From: Eledone cirrhosa
Lineage: Eukaryota
Assembly (NCBI GenBank): GCA_964016885.1
Contig: OZ024744.1
Location: forward strand, 112,778,001 to 112,842,000
DNA: 64,000 nt
Reading direction: 5' to 3'
Shown piece after piece: positions 44,816-53,088 of the stretch; position 1 is the stretch's first letter; the number at the start of each line of letters is the position of its first letter. The position numbers and the translations under genes are program-made. Under the pieces are notes generated by a model. It made no database searches. It was not told where the DNA came from and was given only the letters and a program-made list of their open reading frames with translations.

Positions 44816-46100
44816 CCACCCTTGCAAGCAGGGAATAGCGGACGTAAAAAGGTGATGATGATGATGATGATGTACAGAGAAGATGTAGTGGAATCACAGG
44901 TAAGCTATCTAAGAACGTAGATTTTGTATGTGGCCGATGCTCAGGTGCAGTAAGTAGCAAGCGCCCACTGGATACTATATCCTTCTATTGCCCAGGTGGT
45001 TCTATAGAAATAGTGGACAGCTTCCGTTACCTGGGTGACAAAATCAGCAGTGGTGGAGGGTGTTCTGAAAGTACAGTAGCTAGAGTCAGAACAGGATGGA
45101 AAAAGTTCAGAGAGTTAATACCACTGTTGACCACTAAAAGTTTCTCTCTAAAAATGAAAGGCAGGTTGTATGATGCCTGCATACGAACAGCAATGTTACA
45201 TGGCAGTGAGACTTGGGCATTGTGTGCAGAGGATCTGCGTAGATTGGAAAGGAACAAAGCATGCATGCTCCGTCGGATGTGTAATAGTTTGCTTGAGAGA
45301 AGATTACATTGGTATGTTCACGTGATGCGCATGAAAGACGACAGCTTTATAAAGAAGTGCAGGGCGATCAAAATTGATGGAACTATGGAGTAGGTAGACC
45401 CAGAATGATCTGGGACAAGGTGATAAAAGCTGACCTTGCGCACTTGCATCTCTCTAAGACAATGTCAATGGATTGAGATCTTTGGCATTATGCAGTAATA
45501 CAGAAGACCTGCCTTCCCTTGCGCACAAACTTACACCTACTGTCAGTAGGCACCTCTTAACCCTTTAGCATTTGTATTACTCTATATATTCTATTGTATT
45601 TTCGCTGTAAAGGCTTTATTTGTCATAATATATCGCATGATATTGAATCTATGAGATTTCAATATTTTTTATTTTGAGAACAATACTTTAACATCAATAT
45701 GAGTGGCCAGTTACAGCCGGTTTGAACAGAAAGAGGTGAGAGAATTCTGGCCGGATACGGCCGATTTAAATGCTAAAGGGTTAACCCAATATGCACCCCC
45801 ACCCCACATCCCACACACATACTCCATCCTCCCACTTCCACCCACACCACCTTTTCTCTGTAAAGTTATGTTGGTACCACAACATCCAGCCCACACTGTA
45901 AAGTGGTCATGTAGGAGACATGGTAAAAAGCACCCAGTCCACACTGAAAATGTGGTTGGTGTTAGGAAGGGCATCCAGCCATAGACAACCAGCGCGAAAC
46001 AGTTTTATATGAGCAAGACACGGTCACCTGACCAAACTTGCTTCAAGTAGGACAAACCCGTCAAACCCATGCTAGTAAAATAGATGTTAAATGATGATAT
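44700..46100 (+). mobile_element. RTE LINE 3' fragment with 3' UTR, interrupted by a MITE
   Basis: HKRCSGITGKL, DSFRYLGD.ISSGGGC, LHGSETW; GTTAGGAAGGGCATCCAGC tail. Confidence 0.88.
45561..45780. mobile_element. piggyBac-type MITE (220 bp), TIR CCCTTTAGCATTT, TTAA target-site duplication
   Basis: TTAA|CCCTTTAGCATTT...AAATGCTAAAGGG|TTAA; empty site CACCTCTTAACCAAAT present in the sister RTE copy at 40535-40550. Confidence 0.9.
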
Positions 46101-46332
46101 ATATATATATATATATATATAAAAACAAATAACGAAACGAAATTAAATTTCGTTTCGTTTGTAACTCACTTTTGTATGACTGACGCTTAAACAATTAAGT
46201 TAAAAATGTACATCTACATATGCATACTGAAATACTAGTATGCATATGAATACACACACGTATACTACTCATAGAAAAAGCATATAACGATATGTGCTTT
46301 TACGATTCTCCAGAAAGGCCGGTAGATAGGTA

Positions 46333-46377
46333 AATATTGCTGATGAGTTGTAACAACAACGAAACTAGTTCAATATT
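46333..46377 (+). ncRNA. Canonical minimal type-I hammerhead ribozyme
   Basis: AATATTG-CTGATGA-GTTGT(AACA)ACAAC-GAAA-CTAG-TT-CAATATT; all core nucleotides intact. Confidence 0.88.
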
Positions 46378-46595
46378 CCTTGTCTGGCTTTCTGGAGAAT
46401 AGAGGAAAGGTGTTTCCTCAAAAACCAGTATGACTCTAAAAACCGGTTTGTCTGTGTGTTTACATACGGAATAGCTGGATACTCACAGTAAAGTAACCAG
46501 TGAAAGACTTGGTACATCTACATATGTATACGTGTGTGTATTCATATGCATACTAGTATTTCAGTATGCATATGTAGATGTACATTTTTAACTTA

Positions 46596-46632
<37 letters not shown>

Positions 46633-46950
46633 TCATCATCATCATCATCATCGTTTAACGTCCATGTTCCACGCTTGCATGGGTTTGGATGGGAGTTTTC
46701 CCACTTGAGGCAAGAGTGGTTGTCTTGCTCGCATAGGACTGTCTGGCGGGTTTTCTACAGTTGGATGCCCTTCCTAAAACCAACCACATTTACAGTGTGG
46801 GGCTGGGAGGTTTTTACCGTGTTGCCTACACGGCCACATTACAGCGTGGACTGTCTGGCGGGTTTTCTACAGCTGGATGCCCTTCCTATATATACAATTA
46901 TATATACAATTGATATTAAATAAATGGAAACTATATTTATAAAACATATT

Positions 46951-47011: not shown

Positions 47012-47238
47012 CAAAATATTTTATAAATATTTGACATATAATAGAATAAATATGGTTTTATAAATATAGTTTCCATTTATTTAATATCAATTGAATACTG
47101 ACTCCAGAAAACTGTCGAGTGCTTTGAATCAGTTGTAAACATCTATATTTGTTGGATTGCCAACAAATTAAATATCTCTTATACATATATATATATATAA
47201 ATAATATAAAATCAAAAGATGGTTAAAAGAGTTCCATG

Positions 47239-47309
47239 TATTTTATTATGCGCATTTCAAAAACAAATATCATCATGGGATGATATTTGCGTTCTCATCA
47301 GATAAAATA
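47239..47309 (-). ncRNA. Type-I hammerhead ribozyme (same family as 35152)
   Basis: Reverse complement of the 47369-47439 copy. Confidence 0.85.
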
Positions 47310-47368
47310 GGGAGACATGATATATGTCATGTCTCCCTATTGATATATTGATATATATCATGTCTCCC

Positions 47369-47439
47369 TATTTTATCTGATGAGAACGCAAATATCATCC
47401 CATGATGATATTTGTTTTTGAAATGCGCATAATAAAATA
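47369..47439 (+). ncRNA. Type-I hammerhead ribozyme (same family as 38760)
   Basis: TATTTTAT CTGATGA GAACGCAAATATCATC CCAT GATGATATTTGT TTTT GAAA TGCGCA TA ATAAAATA. Confidence 0.85.
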
Positions 47440-47558
47440 CATGGAACTCTTTTAACCATCTTTTGATTTTATATTATTTATACTCCAGTCCTATAAACTG
47501 TTGAGTGCTACTTATCCGATATTTGCATTGCTTTATTGTGCTACAATAAAACTCACCT

Positions 47559-47603
<45 letters not shown>

Positions 47604-52833: not shown

Positions 52834-53088
52834 GTACTGATGCCTTGATAGAATTATTTACTTATCGTGGGATTAAATCACCTGATCCTAGCTGGCATAC
52901 ACTGTCACAAGATGGCGCTACTGCCAGCATTGTGTATAGAATACGGGTCCTCTGTGATAAAAACTATTATAGTAAAACTTGCAAAAAACTATGTAAACCC
53001 AGAAATGACTCTTTTGGGTACAATACCTGTAATGAAAGTGGGGACAAAATTTGTTTGGAAGGCTGGACAGGGAATCATTGTATGACAG
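52834..53088 (+). CDS. Internal coding exon of a Serrate/Jagged-like (DSL family) Notch ligand: end of the MNNL/C2 domain plus the DSL domain
   Basis: Acceptor tttcctttctgtttacAG, donor AG|GTAAGA; 255 bp, phase 1-1; TDALIELFTYRGIKSPDPSWHTLSQDGATASIVYRIRVLCDKNYYSKTCKKLCKPRNDSFGYNTCNESGDKICLEGWTGNHCMT with all six DSL cysteines; matches the layout of the DSL exon of vertebrate JAG1 as I recall it. Confidence 0.93.

What the first reader, a model, noticed from the sequence alone, without database searches (positions are those of the whole stretch)
46191..46600. 410-bp non-coding element: perfect 75-bp inverted repeats around a textbook hammerhead in a long hairpin (retrozyme-like)
Seen: arms 46191-46265 and 46526-46600 are exact reverse complements. 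Inside lies an intact hammerhead (46333-46377) whose stem I is extended by ATTCTCCAGAAAG/CTTTCTGGAGAAT and AGATAGG/CCTTGTCT pairing. The element has no ORF, (TA)n follows the right arm directly and lies ~70 bp before the left arm, and the ribozyme is sense to the host gene. Inference: a young ribozyme-carrying mini-element that would be mis-annotated as a MITE.
Basis: partly seen in the sequence, partly recalled or inferred. Interest (0 to 1): 0.75.

Follow-up and report, generated by a model that had tools for sequence, protein, structure and literature searches.

The report
Truncated two-armed hammerhead retrozyme insertion
This is a short, broken copy of a 466-base non-coding repeat that occurs thousands of times in this animal genome and carries a predicted self-cutting RNA; its mirror-image ends are not transposon termini but likely arise when a Penelope-type retrotransposon enzyme copies one RNA from both cut ends of a TA microsatellite.

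Summary
The 75-bp inverted repeat and the hammerhead are real, but the element is not 410 bp and has no terminal inverted repeats. The insertion spans about 46121-46600: a 145-bp reversed arm plus a 332-bp forward arm of a 466-bp tandem unit, inside (TA)n. The genome holds 9,070 intact-core hammerheads of this family and at least 1,970 insertions. In 116 sampled insertions the two outer ends fall at two fixed unit positions 70 nt apart; 86 have one of each, none has two long ends and one has two short ends. Both arms share one template variant, and most arms run through the cleavage site. This is the Penelope footprint (tail at one end, inverted copy, TA target) on an animal non-LTR retrozyme. 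The hammerhead stems covary with a 61%-identical sister family. Helix III is a 2-bp palindrome, so it likely cuts as a dimer. This copy has one hammerhead and lacks 64 nt of the unit, so it is probably inert. The partner enzyme was not found and no RNA was available. The scan reported such families, probably this one too, on other DNA of this genome. New member of a known kind.

The parts
46097..46121 (.). left (TA)n target tract (boundary with the element ambiguous by 2-3 nt)
46121..46265 (-). arm A: unit positions about 300 back to 156, outer end at long start site A
   Evidence: 99.3% to the L012 monomer
46121..46190 (-). 70-nt tail between start sites B and A, present at this end only; holds a hairpin at 46131-46159
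46191..46265 (.). left half of the 75-bp inverted repeat (part of arm A)
46266..46268 (.). inversion junction, 3 nt (TAC) aligned to neither arm
46269..46600 (+). arm B: unit positions 365-466 then 1-230, outer end at short start site B
   Evidence: 99.1%
46305..46400 (+). extended stem I hairpin carrying the hammerhead
46333..46377 (+). type I hammerhead: stem I 46333-39/46371-77, CUGAUGA 46340-46, stem II 46347-60, GAAA 46361-64, palindromic ACUAGU helix III, predicted cut after 46370 (GUU)
46526..46600 (.). right half of the 75-bp inverted repeat (3' end of arm B)
46600..46630 (.). right (TA)n target tract

Best explanation
The feature is a truncated two-armed insertion of a 466-bp tandem non-coding hammerhead repeat (an animal non-LTR retrozyme family), likely pasted into (TA)n by a Penelope-like reverse transcriptase/GIY-YIG enzyme acting in trans on one, probably circular, RNA. 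Shown: tandem unit, copy number, TA target, two fixed outer ends paired one of each, variable inner junction, shared template variant between arms, covarying hammerhead stems. Inferred steps: (1) multimer loci are transcribed, possibly from an internal promoter marked by a conserved ATGCAAAT octamer; (2) tandem hammerheads cut as dimers and the monomer is circularised; (3) the enzyme nicks both strands of a (TA)n tract; (4) one nick primes cDNA at unit position about 300 (site A), the other at about 230 (site B); (5) each runs a variable distance round the template, from tens of bases to many units; (6) the two cDNA 5' ends are joined, mostly with a few bases of microhomology or filler. The 75-bp inverted repeat here is the part of the unit copied by both arms. 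This copy has a single hammerhead and lacks unit 301-364, including the octamer, so it is probably inert. Confidence in family identity and a Penelope-type footprint is about 0.95; the figure given is for the whole mechanism including the circle.
For: Unit 466 bp cut-to-cut, head-to-tail. 4,843 exact 45-nt hammerheads; 9,070 of 9,239 with intact core; 1,970 exact end-A/(TA)n junctions; reversed-pattern controls 0. End pairing: of 76 end-A insertions, the other end is B in 46, a short B stub in 10, A in 0; of 40 end-B insertions, the other end is A in 28, an A stub in 2, B in 1. 154 of 194 arms cross the cleavage site and 115 exceed one unit. The partner arm is the strictly closest sequence in 27 of 58 two-arm insertions, tied in 14, against 0.66 expected by chance; median difference 0.65% versus 4.1%. 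L066 has 18 of 18 identical monomers over both arms with 5 differences to any other sampled locus; L109 and L070 have 6 of 6 identical. Arm B is too long to be a fold-back of arm A in 35 of 74. Hammerhead: 6 of 16 pairs change on both sides, core invariant except N7 and H17. A 61%-identical 420-bp sister family keeps the core and the octamer, and the four TA-abutting ends found for it lie at the same two regions. At least seven GIY-YIG/RT element types occur in the genome, several ending in (TA)n; a Hydra-type element in this window has the same inverted, one-tailed layout. Literature: tail at one end and inverted 5' copy (PMC8557442); two internal start sites bounding the tail, both strands nicked and extended (PMC11167929); circRNA and dimer cleavage of animal retrozymes (PMC7229834).
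Against: No RNA, cleavage or circle was observed. No autonomous element sharing the ends or hammerhead was found: 7 element types gave no alignment above shuffles. The partner arm was not the closest sequence in 17 of 58 insertions. Several arrays are heterogeneous (mean 8.9, 6.1, 5.1, 3.8, 3.7 and 3.1 differences within an arm in L112, L086, L097, L104, L100, L061), and in L072j a period-3 variant pattern occurs in arm B only; ageing, multimer templates or later unequal exchange must contribute. In vitro, the anole element used uncut linear RNA, did not need its hammerhead, and showed no start-site difference between strands. The covariation rests on few independent events (mainly family 1 versus family 2). 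The 70-nt tail is longer than the 30-40 bp reported for Penelope elements.
Confidence: 0.62

Rival explanations
1. Same family and same Penelope-type twin priming, but the template is an uncut linear multimer transcript, and long arrays grow further by unequal exchange; the ribozyme plays only an occasional part.
For: Heterogeneous arrays and repeated variant blocks (L061, L097, L072j arm B). The anole hammerhead was dispensable in vitro. Li et al. invoke unequal crossover and saw cleavage in 1 of 9 Xenopus dimers. GUU appears in the subfamily of the window copy, GUC in the more diverged ones. Arms crossing the cut site fit this equally well.
Against: Arrays of 6-18 identical monomers with locus-private variants across both inverted arms require a single-monomer bottleneck. 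The core and stems are kept across 61%-identical families.
Confidence: 0.28
2. A SINE-like passenger of an ordinary non-LTR retrotransposon (LINE), inverted by L1-style twin priming.
For: LINE remnants are abundant in the window; the junctions show short microhomologies.
Against: Both outer ends are fixed internal sites of the unit and there is no poly(A) or simple-repeat tail of its own; in L1 twin priming (recalled) the second primer anneals at variable internal sites and the outer end is not fixed.
Confidence: 0.05
3. A MITE or fold-back DNA transposon with 75-bp terminal inverted repeats that happens to carry a hammerhead.
For: Perfect 75-bp inverted repeat and TA flanks at this locus.
Against: Inverted overlap varies from none to more than 5 kb; the left end extends 70 bp beyond the repeat; the unit is tandem; inner junctions scatter round the whole unit.
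Confidence: 0.02
4. The inverted arm is a fold-back copy of the first cDNA rather than a second priming event.
For: 6 of 74 insertions have near-equal arms, and some junctions sit on palindromes.
Against: In the window copy each arm has sequence that the other lacks; arm B exceeds arm A minus tail in 35 of 74; arm lengths are uncorrelated (rho 0.19, P 0.11).
Confidence: 0.03

Closest known systems
Animal non-LTR retrozymes (coral, mussel, axolotl/newt satellite 2; Cervera & de la Pena 2020, PMC7229834, passages and parts 3-4 of 6 read; Li, Clavereau & Pollet 2026, bioRxiv 10.64898/2026.07.22.740005, parts 1-3 of 5 read)
   Same: Non-coding, low-GC tandem monomer with one type I hammerhead per unit; thousands of copies; weak palindromic helix III; co-occurs with Penelope-like elements.
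   Different: Unit is 466 bp (170-400 nt in PMC7229834; 51-972 bp in the preprint). The parts read do not describe insertion ends, targets or inverted two-arm layout; a word search of PMC7229834 found 0 hits for 'inverted', 'microsatellite' and 'target site'. Unlike 24 of 57 Xenopus families, no matching pLTR was found. Circles and cleavage not tested here.
Penelope-like elements, EN+ clades (Craig et al. 2021, PMC8557442, passages and section 11 read; Frangieh et al. 2024, PMC11167929, parts 1-2 of 4 read; Cervera & de la Pena 2014, PMC4209133, parts 1-2 of 4 read)
   Same: Partial tandems, inverted 5'-truncated copy, tail at one end, (TA)n targeting (Hydra, Naiad), two internal start sites, dimer-type hammerhead.
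   Different: No ORF; tail 70 nt rather than 30-40; arms reach about 31 units (listing, C1:5738328-5752340); start sites are paired almost strictly one of each, whereas in vitro no strand difference was seen.
Non-autonomous Chlamys elements such as MRC1 (PMC8557442, passage)
   Same: Non-autonomous Penelope passengers with multicopy head-to-tail insertions.
   Different: Those generally resemble an autonomous family at the 3' end, and Chlamys mostly lack canonical hammerheads; here there is a hammerhead and no partner match.
MITEs (recalled)
   Same: Short, non-coding, inverted ends, TA flanks at this locus.
   Different: No fixed TIR length, asymmetric ends, tandem multimers.

Membership tests
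Animal non-LTR retrozyme | Short non-coding monomer in head-to-tail tandems | tested here: met
   466-bp spacing, longest Met-ORF 50 aa; 163 monomers from 40 insertions
Animal non-LTR retrozyme | Type I hammerhead with intact core in each unit | tested here: met
   9,070 of 9,239; covariation; no Rfam match at gathering score
Animal non-LTR retrozyme | At least two consecutive complete hammerheads (active copy, Li et al. criterion) | tested here: met
   Met for the family: 51 of 116 insertions. Not met by the window copy, which has one.
Animal non-LTR retrozyme | Self-cleavage of the transcript | not testable with these tools
   Needs in vitro transcription; arm truncations at the cut site are not clearly enriched
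Animal non-LTR retrozyme | Expressed as unit-length circular RNA | not testable with these tools
   No RNA holder listed
Penelope-mobilised element | Tail at one end only (two fixed start sites) | tested here: met
   86 A-B, 0 A-A, 1 B-B among 116
Penelope-mobilised element | Inverted 5'-truncated copy and partial tandems | tested here: met
Penelope-mobilised element | Microsatellite / AT-rich target | tested here: met
   The unselected far end also abuts (TA)n in most insertions; the near end was selected for it
Penelope-mobilised element | Sequence similarity to the pLTR of an autonomous element | tested here: inconclusive
   None among 7 element types or 80 RT/GIY-YIG loci; these are a small part of 59,300 and 10,596 candidates
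MITE | Fixed terminal inverted repeats bounding a uniform-length element | tested here: not met
   Overlap from none to 5,269 bp; total length 10th-90th percentile 0.5-2.5 kb
Plant-type LTR retrozyme | Type III hammerhead in direct LTRs with 4-bp TSD | tested here: not met
   Type I topology, tandem unit, (TA)n flanks

The most novel reading that the evidence does not exclude
Thousands of fresh insertions record, in vivo, a Penelope enzyme dimer working on one circular ribozyme RNA: the two nicked DNA ends are obligately primed at two different sites (one A, one B) and each rolls round the same circle up to tens of times. This would tie animal retrozyme circles directly to Penelope machinery and add a strand-asymmetry rule that the in vitro system did not show.
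Probability: 0.45. Interest if true: 0.68.

Novelty: new member of a known kind. Interest (0 to 1): 0.45.

Why it matters
Which enzyme moves animal retrozymes, and whether their circular RNAs are the real template, has been proposed but not shown in the papers read. This family carries the Penelope footprint at thousands of young sites, with a near-strict one-long-one-short end rule and shared variants between arms, so the question becomes testable by genome statistics and a simple priming assay. It also shows that short copies of this family mimic MITEs and would be mis-annotated. The window copy itself is probably an inert fragment.

Tried and rejected
Rfam scan: no match. RNA runs: no RNA holder listed; contigs laid on the unit and on the locus gave no usable empty-site joint because the TA tracts are skipped; small matches in organisms B and C were not followed up. 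Pile-up of arm truncations at the cut site as evidence of cleavage in vivo: 7 versus 2.7 expected at +/-3 nt (P 0.02) but not significant at +/-2, 5 or 10, four windows tried; the striking L204 junction sits on the AATATT palindrome, so it was rejected. Strict period-2 patterns (dimer circles) were not seen. Partner search: unit against 80 RT/GIY-YIG loci and the 3' ends of 7 element types gave only independent retrozyme insertions or shuffle-level scores. Upstream exons of the DSL gene: MNNL family search found no hit on this contig; tblastn and an HMM over 264 kb found nothing significant. The paper on the newt satellite 2 promoter was not held; its snRNA-type promoter is cited second-hand from PMC2220036 and the octamer in it is recalled. 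No rate comparison of GUU with GUC was found (only lists GUU as cleavable). Literature searches (listings only, except the papers named as read) showed no paper on two-armed retrozyme insertions; supplements were not read and could hold species lists or insertion maps.

Full report
Observation. The two 75-bp arms are exact reverse complements and the hammerhead sits where stated. Stem I is AATATTG/CAATATT, the core CTGATGA, stem II GTTGT-AACA-ACAAC, then GAAA-C-TA-G-T-T with the predicted cut after 46370. The extended stem is in the minimum-energy fold. Rfam has no match at its gathering scores.

The real unit. A search of the 3.0-Gb own genome with the inner 260 bp gave 1,213 candidates; the 41 matches reported were 99-100% identical, many 466 bp apart. 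Cut-to-cut the monomer is 466 bp, with no Met-initiated ORF above 50 aa. The window copy maps onto it as two arms: 46119-46265 is the reverse of unit 302-156, and 46269-46600 is unit 365-466 plus 1-230. The element therefore runs from one (TA)n tract to the other, about 480 bp, and the 75-bp inverted repeat is simply unit 156-230 copied by both arms. Unit 301-364 is missing. Whole-genome exact counts: 1,970 long-end/(TA)n junctions, 205 of one short-end variant, 4,843 exact 45-nt hammerheads, and 9,070 intact cores among 9,239 copies with intact flanks. The last figure partly reflects youth, not only selection.

Insertion anatomy. I took the first 78 of the 1,970 end-A sites (all on contig C1) and kept 76: one near-identical duplicate was dropped and one site was lost to a mis-targeted parse. 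I also took 40 of the 205 end-B sites (47 listed on C1; I left out five already in the A sample, one fetched earlier and the last one, which biases against A-B pairs). For the 76, the far end was B in 46, a short B stub in 10 (one doubtful), A in 0, a single arm into (TA)n in 9, other in 7, and unresolved in 4. For the 40, it was A in 28, an A stub in 2, B in 1, a single arm into (TA)n in 4, other in 4, and unresolved in 1. One earlier locus (L016) and one unfetched pair in the listing also look B-B, so that class is rare, not absent. End B scatters over unit 227-233; end A lies at about 300-302 also where it was not selected. Inner junctions scatter round the unit, mostly with -4 to +9 nt of overlap. 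Of 194 arms, 154 cross the cleavage site and 115 exceed one unit, so a cut linear monomer cannot be the template. One arm holds about 31 units (listing).

One template per insertion. In 58 two-arm insertions with at least 60 shared positions, the partner arm was strictly closest in 27, tied in 14 and not closest in 17, against 0.66 expected by chance; medians were 0.65% versus 4.1%. L066 has 18 identical monomers over both arms, five differences from any other sampled locus; L109 and L070 have six identical each. Against a pure single-circle model, six arrays are heterogeneous (3-9 differences between units) and L072j shows a period-3 variant in one arm only. Fold-back copying cannot be general: arm B is too long in 35 of 74, and arm lengths are uncorrelated.

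Ribozyme. Subfamilies differ by a compensatory stem II change, and the cleavage triplet is GUU in 62 insertions and GUC in 37. A sister family of about 420 bp and 61% identity keeps the core, the ACUAGU palindrome and TATGCAAATT, and the four TA-abutting ends found for it lie at the same two regions. On 20 variants that I chose for diversity from 74 distinct ones, 93.8% of cells pair and 6 of 16 pairs change on both sides, far above slid controls, though from few independent events. Helix III is 2 bp plus a 2-nt loop, the type that Cervera and de la Pena describe as active in dimers (PMC4209133; PMC7229834). The window copy has one hammerhead and no octamer, so it is probably inert unless cut in trans within a host transcript.

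Mobiliser. A one-ended tail, an inverted truncated copy and (TA)n targeting are Penelope hallmarks (PMC8557442), and the tail is the interval between two internal start sites (PMC11167929). The window itself holds a 5'-truncated element with YRDD, a CxCX5C linker and CxxC/CxH motifs, as described for the Hydra clade; it has an inverted, one-tailed layout and its own, different hammerhead. A protein search with it gave 59,300 candidates. At least seven RT/GIY-YIG element types were seen, but none shares ends or hammerhead with the unit above shuffle level. The partner is therefore inferred from the footprint, not identified.

Host gene. An internal-looking + strand exon with a DSL domain lies at 52835-53089. 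No upstream exon was found, so an intronic, sense position is plausible but unproven.

Comparison and verdict. The family meets the sequence-level criteria of animal non-LTR retrozymes; cleavage and circles could not be tested. A Penelope link is already proposed (PMC7229834; preprint). What this family adds is end-level evidence: a near-strict A-B pairing and shared variants between arms. My reading was fixed before the look-up; the scan had already reported a 467-bp family, probably this one, and 310-530-bp families with the same layout in this genome (a sequence look-up returned nothing). Those notes are not independent support. Novelty: new member of a known kind. Interest 0.45.

Noticed in passing
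window 35022-38860: 5'-truncated Penelope-like element with Hydra-type motifs (ORF 36194-37657, minus strand), inverted arms, a tail at one end, hammerheads at 35219(-) and 38763(+), flanked by (TA)n; very abundant family (59,300 candidates).
   Followed up: partly
window 47196-47562: Short two-armed remnant of the same Penelope-like family: 134-bp inverted repeat, two head-to-head hammerheads and a one-sided tail in (TA)n; the same MITE mimicry as the finding.
   Followed up: partly
L014, L116, L127, L176, L205, L233, L251-L253: Sister retrozyme family of about 420 bp (485-511 bp where an internal TA tract has expanded), 61% identical, GUA triplet, U-U mismatch at the base of stem II; arrays lie 20-40 kb upstream of the window.
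   Followed up: partly
unit position 336-343 (absent from the window copy): ATGCAAAT octamer invariant across both families; may mark an internal snRNA-type promoter as reported for newt satellite 2 (second-hand; the octamer link is recalled).
   Followed up: partly
window 52835-53089: Exon of a Delta/Serrate-type Notch ligand gene (DSL domain, E 1.6e-16), + strand; other exons not located.
   Followed up: partly
window 45939-46096 and 46631-46888: Two related high-copy repeats with (ATG)n/(CAT)n ends face the same (TA)n tract from both sides, so the tract looks like an insertion hot spot.
   Followed up: no
L021-L026 (C1:407.946-407.949 Mb): Two units of 484 bp carry an 18-bp duplication exactly at start site B, suggesting re-priming or slippage there.
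   Followed up: no
unit 261-280: Arm truncations pile up at the GAAATTTAATTTC hairpin (22 stops, about 3 per 1,000 passes against about 1.3 on average); may be stalling or alignment ambiguity at a palindrome.
   Followed up: no
L225, L226, L229, L236, L238, L240: Other Penelope-like families carry hammerhead-like variants in their 3' regions (CTGAAGA core with short stem II; a possible U3-A8 variant in L240, judged by eye).
   Followed up: no
runs X4 and X6 (organisms B and C): Contigs 90-99% like the unit occur in runs labelled as two other organisms, at low depth; relatives or contamination not resolved.
   Followed up: no
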